Assembly: GCA_024653675.1 (NCBI GenBank)
Contig: JANLIB010000164.1
Location: 1-49,551, forward strand
Direction of reading: 5' to 3'
Source: Gallionella sp.
GTDB taxonomy: Bacteria; Pseudomonadota; Gammaproteobacteria; Burkholderiales; Gallionellaceae
DNA: 49,551 nt
Shown here: positions 1 to 49,551 of the stretch, one piece after another
How positions within the stretch are numbered: position 1 is the stretch's first letter
Layout: every line of letters begins with the position of its first letter
The notes under the pieces: model-generated
Database searches by the model: none
Told to the model about the DNA's origin: nothing
Seen by the model: only the letters and a program-made list of their open reading frames with translations
Position numbers and translations under genes: made by a program

Positions 1-55
1 ATTGAGCTTTCCATAATTTACGACAAATATACTGCTGAACGGCGACATACGAATA

Positions 56-171
56 CTCCCTTCTCCCGCGGGCGGGAGAAGGGCAGGGGATGAGGGGCTG
101 TGGGCACATAAGAACCTTATTTCCGCTCGACACCCCTCACCCCAACCCCTCTCCCGCTTGCGGGAGAGGGG
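56..171. repeat. Inverted doublet of CCCCTCTCCC-N-GGGAGAGGGG hairpin repeats (DUF559-associated family, empty copy)
   Basis: Arm 56-97 (ctcccttctcccgcgggcgggagaagggcaggggatgagggg) and inverted arm 133-171 (cccctcaccccaacccctctcccgcttgcgggagagggg); same arms as those flanking the gene at 44047-44445. Confidence 0.85.
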
Positions 172-240
172 CTCCAAGTGCATCAGGGTGAACTCTGTAA
201 TAAATTAAGGAATACTCAATAATTGGAATAAAATGACCCC

Positions 241-786
241 ATGCCAGAATACCGACGCGCCAACATTCCCGGCGCCACTTACTTCTTCACCGTTATCACA
301 TACCGTCGTCAGGCGCTGCTGACCGACCCGCACTGCCGCGAGTCTTTGCGCAACGCTATCGACAAAGTGCGTTTGAAAATGCCTTTCGAGATTGTTGCAT
401 GGGTGTTAATGCCCGATCACCTGCATGCCGTATGGCAACTTCCGCAAAACGACAGGGATTTTTCGCTGCGCTGCTCTCTCATCAAGCAACACGTCACACG
501 CGATTGTGCGGCGTGGCTCCCACGGCAAAACCTCTCGGCTTCGCGCGATAAGCGGGGTGAAGGCAACTTGTGGCAGCGGCGATTCCGGGAACATCTCATT
601 CGCGATGAAACAGATTTATCACGGCATCTGGATTACATACATTACAACCCGGTCAAACATGATTACGTTTCTAATGCGGCCGATTGGCCTTACTCTACCT
701 TTCATCGTTATGTGAAGGAAGAAACGTACCCGGAAGATTGGGGCGGTATTGTTGAGACAAATGATGGCAAGAGTTTTGGCGGGTGA
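241..786 (+). CDS. REP-associated tyrosine transposase (RAYT, Y1 HUH)
   Basis: YRR..G.TYFFTV N-terminus, MPDHLH HUH motif, WQRRFREHLIRD, YIHYNPVKH, WPYSTF. Confidence 0.92.
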   Translation: MPEYRRANIPGATYFFTVITYRRQALLTDPHCRESLRNAIDKVRLKMPFEIVAWVLMPDHLHAVWQLPQNDRDFSLRCSLIKQHVTRDCAAWLPRQNLSASRDKRGEGNLWQRRFREHLIRDETDLSRHLDYIHYNPVKHDYVSNAADWPYSTFHRYVKEETYPEDWGGIVETNDGKSFGG

Positions 787-3260: not shown

Positions 3261-3373
3261 GCTCCCCCGCAAGCGGGGGAAGGGTCGGGGATGAGGGACG
3301 ATGTGATGCATCAAAACGTGATTATTACTCAACTCCCCTCACCCCTACCCCTCTCCCGCCTGCGGGAGAGGGG
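3261..3373. repeat. Inverted doublet of CCCCTCTCCC hairpin repeats (empty DUF559-type element)
   Basis: Arms 3261-3297 and 3335-3373 in the same arrangement as 56-171. Confidence 0.8.
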
Positions 3374-11497: not shown

Positions 11498-12172
11498 ATT
11501 TGCATTTGTATCCTGTTCCAGCAGTACGCCGATCTCTTCCAGCGGCGGCAGTTCCTGCAACGCGCGCAGATTGAGGTCGTCGAGCAGTTGTTTGGTAGTG
11601 GCGAACAATTCCGGCTTGCCCGGCGTATCGCGGGTGCCGACCACTTCCACCCAGCCGCGCGCTTCCAGTGTCTTGAGGATTTGCGAGGATACCGCCACAC
11701 CGCGTATTTCTTCGATGTCGCCGCGCGTGACGGGTTGGTGGTAGGCGATGATCGCCAAGGTCTCCAGCACTGCGCGGGAGTAGCGCGGCGGTTTCTGCGG
11801 ATTGAGCCTGTCCAGATACGCCTGCATCTCCGGTTTGGCGCGGAACCGCCAACCGCTCGCCACCTGGCTTAATTCAACGCCGCGCTCTTGCCAGTCCTGC
11901 GCGAGTTCTTCGAGCAGCCCTTCGATCTGGCGATTGTCCAATGGCACATCGCTGAGTTTTTTCAATTCAACCAGCGACAGCGGTTCGGATGTGGTCAATA
12001 GCGCGGCTTCGATCACGCGCTTGAGTTGCCGGGTATCGGCCAGCACCACTTCAGATGCGTGTGCTTCCCCTTCTCCCCACTTCGACAAACTCAGGGCAGA
12101 AGTCTCTTCCGCAAGGGAAGAGGTGACTGCCGGCGGCTCACCCGGCAGTAATGGATCGGCTTGTACGGACAT
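11486..12172 (-). CDS. scpB: SMC-Scp complex subunit ScpB
   Basis: [40 protein letters not shown]. Confidence 0.95.
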
Positions 12173-15956: not shown

Positions 15957-16874
15957 CTACCCTCTCCCGCAAGCGGGAGAGGGGCTGGGGGTGAGGGTCT
16001 CTATTTTGGAATTTAACCCGTTCAATGAAAACGCTTCCCAAACCGGCCTGCAGCCCAGCGGGAAATCCGGCAGCCGCCCCATGTCGCGGTAGCTCTCGCC
16101 CGGCCCGTGAAAATCCGAACCGCACGAACACAGCAAATTGAATTCTTCGGCATAACGCGCAAACTCGGCATACTGTTCCGGCGTGTGGCTGCCGGAAATA
16201 ACCTCTATCGCCCGCCCGCCGCATGCGATGAACTCGGCGAGCAATTCGCGCATGGTCTTGTTGCCCATGCCGCCGCGCCCGGACATATAGCGACCGGGAT
16301 GCGCCAGCACTGCCACGCCGCCGCTGCCGCGTATCCATTCCACCGCATCTTCCAGCATCGCCCATTTATGCGGCACATATCCCGGCTTGCCCTTCACCAG
16401 ATACCGGTTGAACACGCTCTTCACGTCCTTGCATTGCCCGGACTCCACCAGGAAGCGCGCGAAGTGGGTGCGGCTTATCAAGTTGGGATTATCCGCATAA
16501 CGATATGCGCCTTCCAGCGCGCCGGCTATGCCGGACTTGGCTAATTCATCGGCCATTTTTTTCGCGCGTTCGCTGCGTCCGCTGCGCACGCTGCGCAGGC
16601 CTTCGACCAACGGCGGATAATCCGGAGAAATATTCAGACCGACGATGTGCAGGGTATGAGTGCGCCACGACACGGATATCTCCGCGCCGTTGATGAAAGC
16701 CATGCCGTGCCGTGCCGCTGCGGCGCGCGCCTCGTCCAGGCCATCGACGTCATCGTGATCGGTCAGCGCCAACACCTTCACACCGCGCACGGCCGCGCGA
16801 TCCACCAGTTCGGCAGGGGTAAGCGTGCCGTCGGAAATATTGGAATGGCAATGCAGGTCGTAATCCAGCATCAA
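15957..16874 (-). CDS. PHP-domain phosphoesterase (YciV/TrpH-like)
   Basis: DLHCHS..SDG, LTDHD, LAHP, GSDFHG; the C-terminal tail is encoded by a hairpin repeat. Confidence 0.92.
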   Translation of the reverse strand: MMLDYDLHCHSNISDGTLTPAELVDRAAVRGVKVLALTDHDDVDGLDEARAAAARHGMAFINGAEISVSWRTHTLHIVGLNISPDYPPLVEGLRSVRSGRSERAKKMADELAKSGIAGALEGAYRYADNPNLISRTHFARFLVESGQCKDVKSVFNRYLVKGKPGYVPHKWAMLEDAVEWIRGSGGVAVLAHPGRYMSGRGGMGNKTMRELLAEFIACGGRAIEVISGSHTPEQYAEFARYAEEFNLLCSCGSDFHGPGESYRDMGRLPDFPLGCRPVWEAFSLNGLNSKIETLTPSPSPACGRG

Positions 16875-41513: not shown

Positions 41514-44050
41514 TCGCGCAATATCGCCAGCGGCGGCAGCACGGACAAGCGGCGCGTGCCCAGCCATCCGGCCAGCGCAACCGTTGCGATGCCGCCCAGC
41601 ACGCCGATCGGCCAGATCACGGCGCTGGATTGATAGGGTATTTCCAGGACGAAACGCGCCAGCACCCAGCCGAGCAGCACTGCGCCCGCCGCCGCAAACA
41701 GCCCGCTCAAGCCGCCCAGCACGGTGAATTCGGCAAGGTGCAGACGGCGCAGGTAGCGCCCGTCCGCACCCAGCGTGCGCAGCACCGCCGCTTCGAAGGT
41801 GCGCTCGTCCTGCGTGGCGAGCAGCGCGGCGTACAGCACCGCGAAGCCGGACAGCAGCGTGAACAGGAACACCGCGCCCATCACCTGCGTGATCTGGTCC
41901 ATGATGTGGCGCACCTGGGCGATGATCGCGCCGGTGTCGATCACCAGCACGTTCGGGAACTCCCGCGCCAGCGCATCGCCCGCGCGCACCTTGTCCGGCG
42001 GCAGGTAGAAGCTGGTGAGATAGCTGGCCGGAAAATCGCTGAGCAGTTCCGGCGTGGCGATCACGAAGAAATTCGCCCGCATCGAATCCCATTGCACCTT
42101 GCGCAGACTGGTCACGCGCGCGGTAAAGGGCGTAGCCCCCACATCGTAGGTGAGCATATCGCCGAGATAGATGCCCAGCGTCCGGGCGATGCCCTCCTCG
42201 ACCGACAACTCGCCGCCATTCAGTCCTCCGTCCTCAGTCCTCAGTCCTCTGACCTGCCACCACTCCCCCTGCACCAGTTCGTTCCACTCCGGCATCCGCT
42301 CCATATAGGAAAGATTGAACTCGCGCTCCACCAGCCCGCGCGCCCGCGGCTCCGGATAACTGTCGCCATTGACGGGAATATCGTTGATCGCGACCAGCCG
42401 GCCGCGCACCATCGGCTGCAATTGCGGCGGCGGCAACCGTTCGCGCGCAAAGAAATCCAGCACCGGCTGCATCTGATCGGGCTGGATGTTCACGACGAAG
42501 CGGTTCGGCGCATCGGGCGGCAACTTGTCCTGCCAGCCCTGCAGCAGATCGCCGCGCACCAGTGTCAGCAGCAGCAAGGCCATGCCGCCCAGCGCCAATG
42601 CGACGACCTGCAGCGCGTTGTTGCGCACATGTCTTACCAGATTGTTAAGCGCATGCCGCCAATGCGATGCCAGATCCGGGACGTAACGCCCCAGCCCTCG
42701 TAATACCAGTCCGCGCAATATCAGCCAGGCCAACCCGCCGAACACGGCCAGCCCCGCCAGCAAGCCGGCCAGCACCGCAAAACCCAGCTCCAGCGAACCC
42801 GCGTGCCACAGGAACAGCGCCGCCAGCACCAGCACGGCCAGGCCATAGGCCAGCAGGATATTCGGCTGTGGCGCACCCAGCTCGCGGCGCAACACGCGCA
42901 GCGGCGATACCTTGCGCAGTTGCAGCAGCGGCAGGAACGCAAAGCCGAGCAGCAAGGCAAATCCGCTGGCTGCCGCCTTGATCGCGGGCAGCACGCCGGG
43001 CTGAGGCAACGCCGAATCGCGCATGACTTCGACGAAGGAGATCAAGACTGCCTGCGTGGCATAGCCCAGCGCGCAGCCCAGCAGCACCGCGAACAGACCA
43101 AGCATCAGGAACTGGTACAGGAACAAACGCAGCACCTGCCCCTGCTGCGCGCCGAGACAGCGCATCACCGCGCAAGTATCCAGATGGCGCTGCACGAAAC
43201 GCCGCGCAGCCAGCAGGATAGCCGCGCCCGCAAGGATCGCGGCGGTCAGCGCGGCGAGCCCGAGAAAATGCTCGGCGCGTTCCAGCGCACTGCGTATCTC
43301 GGGCCGCGCATCGCGCACGTCCTCCAGCCGCTCGTTGCCGGACAGCTTCGCCTTCAACTCGTCGCGCAGTGCAGCGACCTGCGCCGCCTCGCCCGCGACC
43401 ATCAGGCGATAAGTGATGCGGCTGCCTTCCTGCTGCAAGCCGGTCGCGGCGAGGTCTTGCACGTTCATCAGCACGCGCGGCGCGAAACTGGAAAAGCCGA
43501 CGGACTGGTCGATGTCCTTCACGATGCGCGCCGCCACGACGAAACGCTGCGTGCCGATATTCACCTCATCGCCGACACGCACTTCGAGACGGCGCAGCAA
43601 GCGATCGTCCGCCCACACTGTGCCGGGCGCGGGGATACCGCCACTACTCCCCTCTCCCGCAAGCGGGAGAGGGGCCGGGGGAGAGGGAGGATCGATCACG
43701 ATCTTCCCGCGCAACGGATATCCCGCCTCCACCGCCTGTATCTCGGAGAGCAGCGTCTGTTCGCGGAACGACACCATGCTCAGGAAGCTGCGGCTCTCGA
43801 CAGTTTGCAAGCCGCGCGCCTGTGCGCTGTTGCGGTAAACCGACGGCAGCGGGCGCGTCGAAGTAATGCGCAAATCCGCCCCGATCAAACTGGTCGCCTC
43901 CTGCTGCAATGCCTGCCGCACCCGGTCGGCGAACAGCCCGACCGTGGCGAGGCTGCCCACCGCCAGCACCAGCGCCAGCAACAGCACGCGCCACTCACCG
44001 GCGCGCCAGTCGCGGCGAAGAAGATTGAGGGACAGGCGGAGGAGGTTCAT
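41510..44050 (-). CDS. ABC transporter permease (YbbP/FtsX-like)
   Basis: LRRDWRAGE, GADLRI, YPLRG, PNRFVVNIQPDQ, REFNLS, LRTLGA; carries two in-frame repeat insertions. Confidence 0.92.
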   Translation of the reverse strand: MNLLRLSLNLLRRDWRAGEWRVLLLALVLAVGSLATVGLFADRVRQALQQEATSLIGADLRITSTRPLPSVYRNSAQARGLQTVESRSFLSMVSFREQTLLSEIQAVEAGYPLRGKIVIDPPSPPAPLPLAGEGSSGGIPAPGTVWADDRLLRRLEVRVGDEVNIGTQRFVVAARIVKDIDQSVGFSSFAPRVLMNVQDLAATGLQQEGSRITYRLMVAGEAAQVAALRDELKAKLSGNERLEDVRDARPEIRSALERAEHFLGLAALTAAILAGAAILLAARRFVQRHLDTCAVMRCLGAQQGQVLRLFLYQFLMLGLFAVLLGCALGYATQAVLISFVEVMRDSALPQPGVLPAIKAAASGFALLLGFAFLPLLQLRKVSPLRVLRRELGAPQPNILLAYGLAVLVLAALFLWHAGSLELGFAVLAGLLAGLAVFGGLAWLILRGLVLRGLGRYVPDLASHWRHALNNLVRHVRNNALQVVALALGGMALLLLTLVRGDLLQGWQDKLPPDAPNRFVVNIQPDQMQPVLDFFARERLPPPQLQPMVRGRLVAINDIPVNGDSYPEPRARGLVEREFNLSYMERMPEWNELVQGEWWQVRGLRTEDGGLNGGELSVEEGIARTLGIYLGDMLTYDVGATPFTARVTSLRKVQWDSMRANFFVIATPELLSDFPASYLTSFYLPPDKVRAGDALAREFPNVLVIDTGAIIAQVRHIMDQITQVMGAVFLFTLLSGFAVLYAALLATQDERTFEAAVLRTLGADGRYLRRLHLAEFTVLGGLSGLFAAAGAVLLGWVLARFVLEIPYQSSAVIWPIGVLGGIATVALAGWLGTRRLSVLPPLAILRE

Positions 44051-44445
44051 ACCTCTTCCCCTCTCACACTTGTGGGAGAGGGGTTAGGGGAGAGGGTCTC
44101 TGCGGATATAGCCTCGCCGGTGAGCGCCAGCCGTATCTGCTCCAACACACCTTCCGTTTCATTCATCAGTTCGTTATTCCAAAAACGCAACACTGTAAAA
44201 CCTTGGCTGCGCAACCATGAATCTCGCTCATGGTCGTACACCATACTTTCTGCGTGCTGCCCGCCATCCAGTTCGATGATCAGCTTCTCTTCCAGACAAA
44301 TAAAATCCACCACATAACGGCCTATAGGTTTTTGCCGCTTGAATTTTCTGCCCATAAAGCGATGAGCGCGCAAGTGATACCACAGCTTTTGTTCCGCATC
44401 GGTCAGGTTGCGGCGTAAAGTTTTGGCGTTATCCAGCAGGCTCAT
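44047..44445 (-). CDS. DUF559 / Vsr-like PD-(D/E)XK endonuclease
   Basis: AKTLRRNLTDAEQKLW..LR, KFKRQKPIGRYVVDFICLEEKLIIELDGGQH, DHERDSWLRSQGFTVLRFWNNE. Confidence 0.92.
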   Translation of the reverse strand: MSLLDNAKTLRRNLTDAEQKLWYHLRAHRFMGRKFKRQKPIGRYVVDFICLEEKLIIELDGGQHAESMVYDHERDSWLRSQGFTVLRFWNNELMNETEGVLEQIRLALTGEAISAETLSPNPSPTSVRGEEV

Positions 44446-44490
44446 GCTCGCCCTCTCCCCTGCCCCTCTCCCACAAGTGTGAGAGGGGAA
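44056..44490. mobile_element. DUF559 cassette bounded by ~41-bp hairpin inverted repeats
   Basis: 44056-44097 and 44450-44490 are near-perfect reverse complements. Confidence 0.8.
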
Positions 44491-44494
44491 ATGC

Positions 44495-44564
44495 ACAGCA
44501 CGCGCCACTCCCCGGCGCGCCAGTCGCGGCGGAGCAGGTTGAGGGAAAGGTGGAGAAAATTCAT
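44495..44564 (-). pseudogene. Orphan duplicate of the first 70 bp of the permease gene
   Basis: 61/70 identical to 43981-44050; reads MNFLHLSLNLLRRDWRAGEWRVL. Confidence 0.9.
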
Positions 44565-44574
44565 TTTCCAATCA

Positions 44575-45240
44575 CTATTCCACCCGCCCTGCGACAAGAC
44601 GCAACTGCTTTCTGCATCTTCGCGCCAGCGCTTCGTCGTGAGTGACGAGTATCAGCGTGGTGCCCTGCGCGCGGTTCAGTTCCAGCATCAGTTCGATGAT
44701 CTGGCTACCAGTGGCGGCGTCGAGGTTGCCGGTGGGTTCGTCGGCGAACAGGATCTTCGGCTGGGTGACAAAGGCGCGGGCCAGTGCGACGCGCTGCTGC
44801 TCGCCACCGGAGAGATGCTTGGGCAGGTGGTGCACGCGGGCGCTCAAGCCGACCTGGCGCAAGGATACCTCGGCGCGGGCATACGCATCGGCAGCGCCGC
44901 GCAGTTCCAGCGGCAGCATCACGTTCTCCAGCGCGGAAAGCGCGGGCAGCAACTGGAACGACTGGAACACGAAGCCCGCCAGTTCGCCGCGCAGCCTGGC
45001 GCGCCCATCCTCGTCCAGCGCGAACAGGTCCATGCCATTCAGCAACACACTGCCGCTGCTCGGCACGTCCAGCCCGGCGAGCAGGCCGAGCAGGGTAGAC
45101 TTGCCGGAACCGGATGCGCCGAGAATCGCCAGGCTCTCGCCCGCCTCGACCGCAAAACTTGCGTGGTGCAAGATGGTCAGTGGTTGGTCGCCGCTAAGCA
45201 CTTGCTTAGTAAGTTCAACTGCCTGCACAATCGCTGCCAT
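44575..45240 (-). CDS. ABC transporter ATP-binding protein (YbbA-like)
   Basis: GASGSGKST, GFVFQSFQL, LSGGEQQRVALARA, FADEPTGNLD. Confidence 0.95.
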   Translation of the reverse strand: MAAIVQAVELTKQVLSGDQPLTILHHASFAVEAGESLAILGASGSGKSTLLGLLAGLDVPSSGSVLLNGMDLFALDEDGRARLRGELAGFVFQSFQLLPALSALENVMLPLELRGAADAYARAEVSLRQVGLSARVHHLPKHLSGGEQQRVALARAFVTQPKILFADEPTGNLDAATGSQIIELMLELNRAQGTTLILVTHDEALARRCRKQLRLVAGRVE

Positions 45241-45928
45241 GAAAACTTTATCCCTCAGAGTTATCTTGCTGGTCGCCGCACTGCTGCTGCCGCATTCCAC
45301 CTATGCGGCAAAAAACATTTTGGTGTTTGGCGACAGTCTATCAGCCGGGTATGGCATCGCAATTGAAAAAAGCTGGGCATATCTGCTGCAACAGGAACTG
45401 ACGCGCACGCAGTCCGGCTTCAGCATCGTGAACGCCAGCATCAGCGGCGAGACCACGGTGGGCGGCAGGCAGCGCATCGCAAAGGTATTGAAACTGCACC
45501 GCCCGGCTGTCGTGATCGTGGCGCTAGGCGCGAACGACGGGCTGCGCGGTTACAAGCCAGCGGATATTGAAGCAAATCTCGGTGCGATCATCACACAGGC
45601 GCAGCGCGCCGGCGCCAGTGTGCTGCTGGCAGGCATGGAGCTTCCGCCGAATTACGGCTCAAGCTACACCGGAAAATTCCGTGATCTCTACCGGCGCCTT
45701 GCGGAAAAACATCGGGTCAAGCTGTTGCCGTTCCTGCTGGAGGATGTGGCCGCAGATCAATTCCAGCCCGACAACCTGCATCCCGTTGCCGGTGCGCAGG
45801 CGCATATCATGCGCACCGTGATGCAGGCACTCAAACCTCTTCTAAATAAAGAACAAATCAGCGTAGCGAGACCCCGTTCCGCTCTGAGAACCCTATCGCG
45901 CCCATCACCCCCGCGCCAAGTTTTTTAG
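45239..45928 (+). CDS. tesA: GDSL arylesterase / thioesterase I
   Basis: Signal peptide, FGDSLSAGYG, NASISGETT, LGANDGLRG, D.LHP; head-to-head with the ABC ATPase. Confidence 0.88.
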   Translation: MKTLSLRVILLVAALLLPHSTYAAKNILVFGDSLSAGYGIAIEKSWAYLLQQELTRTQSGFSIVNASISGETTVGGRQRIAKVLKLHRPAVVIVALGANDGLRGYKPADIEANLGAIITQAQRAGASVLLAGMELPPNYGSSYTGKFRDLYRRLAEKHRVKLLPFLLEDVAADQFQPDNLHPVAGAQAHIMRTVMQALKPLLNKEQISVARPRSALRTLSRPSPPRQVF

Positions 45929-49067: not shown

Positions 49068-49551
49068 TTACCCTCCATAATCCAATTCCACACCCACATC
49101 GCCCGCCCAATCCTTCGGCACAATACCGGCTTGCACGTAACGATGAAACGACGAATGCGACCACTCTGCAACACGCGACACCAAGCCGTGCTTGACCGGA
49201 TTGATATGGATGTAATCGACATGCCGTGAAAAATCCGCCTCGTCGCGGATGAGATGTTCCCAATATCGCCGCTGCCATACTCCACGCTCGCCTTTGATTT
49301 GCCGGCTCTTGGAGCGACGCTCGCCATGCGGCAAGCCACGCGAGAAGACCGTTTTGATTAGCTTCCAGCGTAGCGCGAAATCGCTGTCTCCGGCAGGCAA
49401 CGTCCAGATGGCGTGAAGGTGATCCGGCAATACCACAATGGCGTCCACGATGAAGGGATGTCGCTCACGGGTATATTCAAAAGCGCTGCGCAACAATGCG
49501 ATGTGATCGGTTAGTAAGGATTGCGAGCGGTCGGCAAGATTCACCGTGAAG
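49068..49551 (-). CDS. RAYT transposase (5' end outside the window)
   Basis: FTVNL, VVLPDHLH, WQRRYWEHLIRD, YIHINPVKHG, WSHSSF. Confidence 0.9.
   Translation of the reverse strand, partial: FTVNLADRSQSLLTDHIALLRSAFEYTRERHPFIVDAIVVLPDHLHAIWTLPAGDSDFALRWKLIKTVFSRGLPHGERRSKSRQIKGERGVWQRRYWEHLIRDEADFSRHVDYIHINPVKHGLVSRVAEWSHSSFHRYVQAGIVPKDWAGDVGVELDYGG

What the first reader, a model, noticed from the sequence alone, without database searches (positions are those of the whole stretch)
44047..44490. DUF559 endonuclease bracketed by hairpin inverted repeats, with empty copies elsewhere: a RAYT/REPIN-like system built on a Vsr-like nuclease
Seen: the DUF559 gene lies between two ~41-bp near-perfect inverted repeats (44056-44097 and 44450-44490). 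Each is a CCCCTCTCCC..GGGAGAGGGG hairpin plus a C/G-rich tail, and both share the same private CACAAGTGTG variant. The nuclease C-terminus (TLSPNPSPTSVRGEE) is read from the repeat. The same two arms in the same orientation, with only ~35 bp between them, occur at 56-171 and 3261-3373. Single arms occur at 15960-15998, 43647-43687 and (degenerate) 12066-12124. Known: RAYT genes are flanked by REPs in this arrangement, and REPINs are their empty doublets. Inferred: DUF559 is the autonomous partner that spreads or maintains this non-GTAG repeat family. No transposase motif is present.
Basis: partly seen in the sequence, partly recalled or inferred. Interest (0 to 1): 0.88.

Follow-up and report, generated by a model that had tools for sequence, protein, structure and literature searches.

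The report
DUF559 nuclease framed by BoxC repeats
A small gene for a predicted DNA-cutting enzyme sits exactly between two inverted copies of a long-known but unexplained folding DNA repeat (BoxC/triplex motif), and each branch of this enzyme family comes with its own version of the repeat, so the enzyme is likely the repeat family's missing partner, although it is not shown to move the repeats itself.

Summary
The frame is real: a 132-aa DUF559 gene lies between tails-inward inverted arms (39 of 41 bp paired). The arms belong to the published BoxC/PIT/TM intrastrand-triplex repeat family, for which I found no partner gene in print. The pairing is general: both arms flank 55 of 78 and 20 of 29 relatives, against 0.02-0.07 arms per same-sized window elsewhere. 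In 81 genomes of the genus, DUF559 clades carry clade-specific arms, occupy 34 sites, and predict which arm type is abundant genome-wide (13/13 vs 7/68; 7/8 vs 6/73). RAYTs are not framed by these arms (0 of 20). The protein has a Vsr-like fold, near-invariant active-site residues and dN/dS 0.05-0.10. Corrections: this cassette's loop variant occurs only in its own two arms; the 'empty' doublets resemble other DUF559 cassettes, and one rides inside a 222-bp MITE; the ybbA-ybbP junction is a general cargo hotspot with no empty-doublet allele. Best reading: a third nuclease-plus-cognate-repeat system beside RAYT/REP and Ssn/NTS; cutting and mobility are untested. The scan noted this system on other DNA before (32 findings).

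The parts
44050..44445 (-). DUF559 Vsr-like endonuclease gene, 132 aa (stop codon 44047-44049); last 15 residues are encoded by the left arm; stop overlaps the ybbP start (ATGA)
   Evidence: Pfam PF04480 E 5.8e-46; PDB 3HRL E 3.4e-35; AF2 pLDDT 88, Z 17.4 to 3HRL, 13.1 to I-Bth0305I, 10.8 to Vsr; dN/dS 0.05-0.10
44056..44096 (+). Left (3') arm: hairpin 44058-44083 plus mirror-repeat purine tail 44086-44096; BoxC/TM triplex-type unit
   Evidence: fits the TM(ECO) consensus with one substitution and a 4-nt linker, not the strict consensus
44451..44490 (-). Right (5') arm: hairpin 44463-44488 plus tail 44451-44461; the G-rich tail ends 5 nt before the DUF559 ATG and could serve as its ribosome-binding site (inferred)
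44496..44564 (-). Diverged second copy of the first 23 codons of ybbP; reads on through the arm as a 40-codon leader whose stop overlaps the DUF559 start (ATGA)
   Evidence: sequence; same layout in L032-L037 and L058, and with a RAYT cassette in the closest relative L113
41510..44050 (-). ybbP-like ABC permease, downstream flank
   Evidence: NCBIfam NF041854 E 6.8e-147, below the curated cut-off
44575..45300 (-). ybbA-like ABC ATPase, upstream flank
   Evidence: NCBIfam NF007879 E 6.7e-81, below the curated cut-off
43650..43687 (+). Single arm, in frame inside a permissive loop of ybbP that different repeats have entered independently in relatives
59..170 (.). Tails-inward doublet with a 37-bp spacer, inside a 222-bp MITE (window 1-222)
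3262..3372 (.). Tails-inward doublet between gspE and gspF; absent from the same gap in two close relatives, which hold GTAG REPs there
15960..15997 (+). Single arm at the 3' end of a PHP-domain gene; absent in 4 of 4 relatives aligned
12066..12124 (+). Degenerate arm (tail and hairpin split by a piece of another repeat) at the scpB 5' end; a cleaner unit sits at the same place in G024

Best explanation
The gene and its two arms form a three-part cassette, and the DUF559 protein is likely the cognate nuclease of the BoxC/triplex-motif repeats that frame it. Shown: the frame, its recurrence across bacteria, the clade-by-clade match between protein and arm type, 34 different insertion sites in one genus, a Vsr-like fold with conserved catalytic residues, and purifying selection. 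Inferred: the protein binds the arm when it is single-stranded and folded (hairpin plus mirror-repeat third strand) and nicks at or beside it. Host repair and recombination, not the protein, would then do the joining, so arms and doublets are copied to new sites in genomes that carry the matching enzyme and decay slowly after it is lost. Whole cassettes also travel passively, by recombination between conserved flanks at hotspots (this locus) and inside MITEs. This particular copy is an old resident, not the source of this genome's scattered arms.
For: Both arms in 55 of 78 GTDB relatives (upstream arm, which was not in the query, 60 of 78) vs 0.022 per 160 bp elsewhere in the same loci; 20 of 29 in an even draw across the phylum vs 0.068 per 170 bp; weak helicase-type hits have none (4 of 4). 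All 4 DUF559 genes of this genome touch an arm, 3 of 4 on both sides. 74 genus cassettes in 7 clades occupy 34 sites, none shared between clades, each clade with its own arm type. Arm type vs clade in 81 genomes: type V >=4 copies in 13/13 clade-K genomes vs 7/68; type II in 7/8 clade-F vs 6/73; type I >=10 in 21/29 vs 14/52; all 12 genomes with no type-I arm lack DUF559. On a ybbA tree of 70 genomes, with own arms subtracted, independent pairs go the same way 6.3 vs 0.1 (K/V, median p 0.03) and 5.5 vs 0.2 (I/I, p 0.06); mismatched pairs show nothing. Tail is a better mirror than direct copy of the purine arm in 97 vs 9 of 156 arms, the geometry of the published triplex. E18, E58, H64, D71 in 78/78 and D47, D60 in 77/78 genus proteins; only 2 of 79 cores have a stop. 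E. coli ycjD also ends in a BoxC unit. Precedent: Ssn/NTS.
Against: No biochemistry. The fold has no strand-joining chemistry. The private loop variant of this cassette has no scattered copies and the doublets match other cassettes better. No target duplication could be assigned to any arm or bare cassette (relatives were too diverged). The clearest recent multi-site copies (G056, G089) sit inside a MITE with 21-bp terminal repeats and 9-bp target duplications. 5 genomes without DUF559 hold 15-23 type-I arms (66-91% complete), 7 non-K genomes hold type V, and G024 has 22 type-II arms without clade F. RAYT count also correlates with type-I count (rho 0.48; partial 0.46 vs 0.52), and type I is also raised with clades F and K (p 0.01, 0.04). 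F/II independent pairs are too few (2.2 vs 0.2, p 0.5). The only DUF559 protein with genetics, Caulobacter VsrA, was interpreted as a T:G mismatch repair enzyme.
Confidence: 0.6

Rival explanations
1. Permissive partner: the nuclease recognises the arms but serves the host, cutting or resolving the folded structure (for example at stalled forks or in incoming ssDNA, as SsnA does). Repeats accumulate where it is present but are spread by other means.
For: Strong purifying selection and long residence at fixed sites; translational coupling into the ybbA-ybbP operon (sequence); SsnA modulates transformation rather than transposing (abstract); PIT elements block polymerase in vitro. Fits every correlation as well as the best explanation does.
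Against: Does not by itself explain why the gene is framed by its own substrate on both sides at 34 sites, or why it enters host genes in frame.
Confidence: 0.17
2. Passenger: DUF559 is a Vsr-like mismatch-repair nuclease unrelated to the repeats in function. It was captured between two arms, and the unit spreads by recombination at hotspots and inside MITEs, seeding arms of its own type as deletion products.
For: Caulobacter VsrA genetics; Vsr fold; the junction also holds toxin-antitoxin pairs, a RAYT and a GIY-YIG cassette in relatives; MITE carriage with deletion derivatives.
Against: At least five distinct arm types each stay with one protein clade across many sites; genome-wide counts of up to 109 arms follow the clade; mirror geometry is kept as the sequence changes; no cytosine methyltransferase gene flanks this copy.
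Confidence: 0.13
3. The repeats are mobilised in trans by a RAYT or a DDE transposase, and DUF559 is cargo between two such ends.
For: A RAYT lies 70 bp from the 56-171 doublet; RAYT number correlates with type-I arms; MITEs do carry doublets and cassettes.
Against: 0 of 20 RAYT loci from repeat-rich genomes have an arm and 19 of 20 have GTAG REPs; the window RAYT has its own GTAG REP and the doublet beside it belongs to a MITE; RAYT independent pairs 4.1 vs 1.4, median p 0.45; most arms are not inside MITE shells.
Confidence: 0.05
4. The target is RNA: the protein binds or cuts the transcribed arm, as Vsr-like RAP domains act on RNA.
For: RAP-type mitoribosomal proteins score Z 9.6-10.9; the arms overlap start and stop signals.
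Against: The purine-motif triplex is stated not to form in RNA; arms show no strand bias relative to genes in E. coli; metal-binding residues match DNA nucleases.
Confidence: 0.05

Closest known systems
BoxC / PIT / TM(ECO) intrastrand triplex repeats (Holder et al. 2015, PMC4666352; read: passages, Table 1 section, first part of Discussion)
   Same: Hairpin plus mirror purine tail; singles and inverted doublets; 26 strict and 119 relaxed consensus matches in this genome; E. coli ycjD ends in such a unit.
   Different: That paper found no associated mobile element or flanking gene function and never mentions ycjD or an endonuclease. The window's arms miss the strict consensus by one base and a 4-nt linker.
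Ssn/NTS (SRM) system (Chenal et al. 2025, PMC11893778; read: abstract, passages, section 8)
   Same: Small single-domain non-transposase nuclease gene flanked by its own hairpin repeats, which are scattered in many copies; subfamilies with their own repeat variants.
   Different: GIY-YIG fold vs Vsr-like PD-(D/E)XK fold; simple hairpin vs triplex motif; Ssn activity is demonstrated, DUF559 activity is not; the paper does not mention DUF559.
RAYT/REP/REPIN (REPtron); general features recalled, and as cited in PMC11893778
   Same: Gene between inverted cognate repeats, gene-less doublets, type-specific co-occurrence.
   Different: No HUH/Y1 domain, no GTAG tag, no strand-transfer chemistry; RAYTs of this genus have separate GTAG REPs.
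Vsr and Caulobacter VsrA (CCNA_02930; PMC12907096; read: passages, first part of Discussion)
   Same: Fold (Z 10.8 to Vsr); E18/D47/D60/H64/D71 match the spacing of VsrA E73/D102/D115/H119/D124 (inferred from spacing); VsrA contains DUF559 and causes an SOS response in vivo.
   Different: Not beside a cytosine methyltransferase; framed by repeats; whether vsrA is framed was not checked.
I-Bth0305I / EDxHD homing endonucleases (PMC3239194; read: passages)
   Same: Second-best solved structure (Z 13.1, rmsd 2.3 over 92 residues); shows that this fold serves selfish elements.
   Different: No N-terminal DNA-binding domain, no intron or intein; the filled allele keeps the whole ybbP sequence.

Membership tests
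BoxC/PIT/TM repeats | Strict TM(ECO) consensus of Holder et al. | tested here: not met
   0 strict matches in the window, 26 in the genome
BoxC/PIT/TM repeats | Consensus with one substitution and a 3-5 nt linker; mirror-repeat third strand | tested here: met
   6 window arms match, including both cassette arms; mirror score 1.0 for both
BoxC/PIT/TM repeats | Forms a triplex as ssDNA in vitro | not testable with these tools
   shown for E. coli copies by CD/NMR
RAYT/REPIN system | HUH/Y1 transposase gene | tested here: not met
   Pfam/NCBIfam give DUF559 only; fold is Vsr-like
RAYT/REPIN system | Repeats tagged with GTAG/CGTC | tested here: not met
   arms carry no such tag; genus RAYTs have GTAG REPs
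RAYT/REPIN system | Gene framed by inverted cognate repeats; gene-less doublets; type-specific co-occurrence | tested here: met
   12 tails-in and 13 tails-out short doublets in this genome
Ssn/SRM system | GIY-YIG (cd10448) domain | tested here: not met
Ssn/SRM system | Site-specific ssDNA cleavage beside the cognate repeat | not testable with these tools
   needs purified protein
Vsr (VSP repair) | Vsr fold and catalytic residues | tested here: met
   Z 10.8, rmsd 2.5 over 104 residues; residues near-invariant in 78 proteins
Vsr (VSP repair) | Gene linked to a cytosine methyltransferase | tested here: not met
   flanks are ybbA and ybbP; 34 varied sites in the genus
Vsr (VSP repair) | Nicks T:G mismatches | not testable with these tools
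   needs an assay
EDxHD homing endonucleases | N-terminal NUMOD/HTH DNA-binding domain, in an intron or intein | tested here: not met
   132-aa single domain, free-standing gene
Insertion sequence | Transposase gene | tested here: not met
Insertion sequence | Target-site duplication at the arms | tested here: inconclusive
   none assignable, relatives too diverged; 9-bp duplications seen only around a carrier MITE

The most novel reading that the evidence does not exclude
DUF559 proteins are structure- and sequence-specific nucleases for intrastrand DNA triplexes, and the arm-gene-arm cassette is the autonomous form of a transposase-free class of selfish element. Its nicks, finished by host repair, generate the BoxC/PIT/TM repeats of E. 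coli and many other bacteria and insert the cassette in frame into host proteins, with a family-wide code of protein clade to triplex variant.
Probability: 0.3. Interest if true: 0.9.

Novelty: new variant of a known kind. Interest (0 to 1): 0.7.

Why it matters
BoxC/PIT/TM repeats have been known since the 1990s, form stable triplexes in vitro and mark unstable sites, but have no known origin or binding partner. A candidate enzyme, with a copy in E. coli K-12 (ycjD) and a solved homologue (3HRL), makes the question directly testable. It would add a third nuclease chemistry (PD-(D/E)XK) to the gene-between-its-own-repeats design of RAYT/REP and Ssn/NTS, give a function to a large unknown-function family, offer another reading of the Caulobacter VsrA phenotype, and could yield a set of ~105-residue nucleases with distinct specificities for folded ssDNA.

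Tried and rejected
Single-sequence structure prediction was poor (pLDDT 51); replaced by a 60-row alignment model. The careful protein tree did not finish; the quick tree was used, with 105 columns, 30 of 76 branches open and two long rows, so only clades with support 90 or more or a clear shared motif were used. Search for target duplications at single arms and doublets against close relatives failed because the sites are diverged or hold other repeats. Looked for an empty-doublet allele at ybbA-ybbP: none in 70 loci, though 29 were unresolved because ybbP lay beyond the fetched stretch. Rejected: that this cassette is the parent of the window's doublets; that the adjacent RAYT is the partner; that the ybbP 5' duplication is a target duplication made by this cassette (6 of 8 differing codons are synonymous, and the same duplication accompanies a RAYT cassette in L113); classical homing (the filled allele keeps the full ybbP sequence). 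Type-III/IV arms (clades S, Q) were not counted genome-wide. Literature: DUF559+repeat, 18 papers; DUF559, 25 papers, 22 listed; ycjD or boxC, 40 of 257 listed, none with both; triplex+YcjD, 0; Vsr-like+flanked+inverted repeats+mobile element, 0; two searches gave no DUF559 link in titles or abstracts. Subscription journals are mostly outside the library, and no supplements were opened; the Ssn and TM supplements could bear on prior notice. Caulobacter vsrA flanks could not be fetched.
Full report
Observation. The DUF559 gene (Pfam E 5.8e-46) runs 44445 to 44047 on the minus strand. The listed 174-aa ORF begins at an upstream TTG; relatives start at the ATG at 44445. The arms pair over 28 bp (44056-44083 with 44463-44490) and 11 bp (44086-44096 with 44451-44461), with tails toward the gene. 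The last 15 residues come from the left arm. The core 10-mer occurs 20 times in the window against 2.33 expected, and 179 tail-plus-hairpin units occur in the genome against 0 in a 1-Mb Markov control.

What the repeat is. It is the BoxC/PIT/TM intrastrand-triplex motif. Holder et al. (PMC4666352; passages, Table 1 section and part of the Discussion read) give the consensus, show a triplex in vitro, and report no associated mobile element or flanking gene function. The genome has 26 strict and 119 relaxed matches; the cassette arms fit the relaxed form only. Across 156 distinct arms from genus and phylum cassettes the tail is a better mirror than direct copy of the purine strand in 97 cases and the reverse in 9, so the triplex geometry is what is kept as the sequence changes.

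The pairing is general. All 4 DUF559 genes of this genome touch an arm, 3 on both sides. Of 80 GTDB loci, 78 had enough flank: 60 have an upstream unit, 69 a downstream unit, 55 both and 74 either, against 45 units in 320,944 more distant bases. The query included the repeat-encoded tail, which favours the downstream arm; the upstream count is free of that. My automatic orientation call gave tails-inward on both sides in 40 of 78. An even draw of 150 genomes of the phylum found DUF559 in 33; of 29 loci examined, 25 had an upstream hairpin, 24 a downstream one and 20 both, against 0.068 per 170 bp. Four weak helicase-type hits had none. E. coli K-12 ycjD ends in a BoxC-like unit with a second one 160 bp on, but has none upstream.

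Clade-specific arms. In 81 genomes of the genus (closest named records are Gallionella), 49 have DUF559. A quick tree of 79 proteins separates clades, each with its own arm type. The 74 cassettes assigned to 7 clades occupy 34 sites, none shared between clades. I then counted three arm types genome-wide. Type V reaches 4 or more copies in 13 of 13 clade-K genomes and 7 of 68 others; type II in 7 of 8 clade-F genomes and 6 of 73 others; type I reaches 10 in 21 of 29 vs 14 of 52. Type II vs K, type V vs I and both vs S/Q show nothing, but type I is also raised with F and K (p 0.01, 0.04). All 12 genomes without type-I arms lack DUF559, while 5 incomplete genomes without it have 15-23. These counts include each cassette's own arms, and kin are not independent. 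On a ybbA tree of 70 genomes, with two own arms subtracted, independent pairs go the same way 6.3 vs 0.1 for K/V (median p 0.03), 5.5 vs 0.2 for I/I (p 0.06) and 2.2 vs 0.2 for F/II (too few); five mismatched pairings give p 0.5-1. The tree rests on one gene beside a recombining hotspot, and most genomes are MAGs.

RAYT as rival. A RAYT lies at 241-786, 70 bp from the first doublet, and RAYT number correlates with type-I arms (rho 0.48). But 0 of 20 RAYT loci chosen mostly from repeat-rich genomes have an arm, while 19 have GTAG REPs, and independent pairs give 4.1 vs 1.4, p 0.45. I read the correlation as a general load of small repeats.

The protein. The alignment-based model (pLDDT 88) matches the Neisseria DUF559 structure 3HRL (Z 17.4), the homing endonuclease I-Bth0305I (Z 13.1) and Vsr (Z 10.8). 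E18, E58, H64 and D71 are present in 78 of 78 genus proteins, D47 and D60 in 77; 2 of 79 cores have a stop; dN/dS to 7 near relatives is 0.05-0.10 at dS 1.0-1.4 (one further pair saturated). E18/D47/D60/H64 have the same spacing as the proposed active site of Caulobacter VsrA (inferred from spacing). VsrA is a DUF559 protein that causes an SOS response in a methyltransferase mutant and was interpreted as a mismatch-repair enzyme (PMC12907096). That shows likely nuclease activity in vivo and is the main published rival.

This locus. The ybbA-ybbP junction is a cargo hotspot. Of 70 genus loci, 19 have the genes abutting, 8 hold the cassette or a remnant, 14 hold other cargo and 29 were unresolved; none of the 62 non-DUF559 loci showed an arm by my pattern, though L117 has a decayed one by eye. 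Other cargo includes toxin-antitoxin pairs, a RAYT with REPs and a GIY-YIG gene with its own repeats. So arms arrived with the gene; the gene did not enter a resident doublet. Upstream lies a diverged copy of the first 23 ybbP codons, also seen in 7 relatives and with a RAYT cassette in the closest relative. Six of 8 differing codons are synonymous, which points to recombination between alleles rather than a decayed target duplication. That copy reads on to a stop overlapping the DUF559 start, and the DUF559 stop overlaps the ybbP start, so the cassette is likely neutral for the operon (sequence; inference). Cassette dS is about twice that of ybbA for four of the same genome pairs (1.0-1.4 vs 0.44-0.77), consistent with long residence and exchange. 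Two loop variants assort as AA, AB, BB and BA among these alleles, so the shared 'private' loop likely reflects conversion between arms.

The 'empty copies'. The cassette's loop variant occurs only in its two arms. For 0 of 26 doublet arms was the window cassette the best match; most match a clade inserted in frame in a methylase gene in other genomes. The 56-171 doublet is inside a 222-bp TA-flanked MITE with 18 left and 16 right ends in the genome, whose shell holds other repeats elsewhere. In G056 another MITE, with 21-bp terminal repeats and 9-bp target duplications, carries a filled cassette and derivatives with one fused, tail-less hairpin. That product is expected from recombination between the two hairpins, which are also direct repeats because they are palindromic; the reciprocal product would be a circle with gene, tails and one hairpin (inference, untested).

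Mechanism and verdict. The best reading is a cognate nuclease-repeat pair. The nearest working model is Ssn/NTS (PMC11893778; abstract, passages and section 8 read): a small non-transposase nuclease framed by its own repeats that cuts beside them in ssDNA only. The system works like RAYT/REP and Ssn/NTS in layout and co-variation but is a member of neither. Recognition and cutting of the arm are inferred (0.6 as driver, 0.17 as permissive partner); autonomy is not shown, and this copy is not the source of the genome's scattered arms. My searches found no paper linking DUF559 or ycjD to these repeats. The scan's own notes record the same system in 32 findings on other DNA; I had identified BoxC before reading them, and they are not independent support. 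New here are the clade-by-arm-type test with independent pairs, the direct RAYT control, and the evidence that hotspots and MITEs account for part of the movement.

Noticed in passing
window 1-222: A 222-bp TA-flanked, imperfectly palindromic MITE with 18 left and 16 right ends in the genome, mostly at contig breaks; the same shell holds a BoxC doublet here and other repeat families on C199 and C285. Its transposase was not sought.
   Followed up: partly
window 241-786 and about 790-810: RAYT gene (NF047646 E 9.3e-57) with a GTAG-type REP at its 3' end; the MITE sits where its 5' REP would be. A second RAYT is cut by the window end at 49095-49550.
   Followed up: partly
window 44496-44564; L032-L037, L058, L113: Duplicated ybbP start in front of different cassettes (DUF559 or RAYT) at the ybbA-ybbP hotspot; may be a general way in which small cassettes enter an operon without breaking it.
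   Followed up: partly
G000:C234 5001-8207 (L198): A DUF559 cassette and four tails-out doublets of one private variant all lie within or beside one 1562-codon HrpA-like frame; in-frame cassettes also occur in MetRS and methylase genes of relatives.
   Followed up: partly
L124 (G053), just after ybbA: A 96-aa GIY-YIG gene framed by its own palindromic repeats, probably an Ssn/SRM unit, at the same hotspot.
   Followed up: no
L199-L218 (G056): A MITE with 21-bp terminal repeats and 9-bp target duplications that carries varied contents: a DUF559 cassette, its deletion derivatives, and unrelated palindromes.
   Followed up: partly
window 43650-43687; L034, L038, L041, L113, L114, L133, L134, L138: One loop of YbbP has taken in-frame repeat insertions of different types independently, growing from 27 to 36-65 residues.
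   Followed up: partly
L031 1830-1970 and 2255-2305 (E. coli K-12): ycjD is followed by a partial duplicate of its own 3' end and a second BoxC, and preceded by a long perfect hairpin instead of an arm; a paper reports that ycjD stands where eefRABCD is in other lineages.
   Followed up: no
G000 genome-wide: A third arm type (type III, at least a dozen copies) is present although no DUF559 of the matching clade was found in this assembly; likely left over after loss, or unassembled.
   Followed up: no
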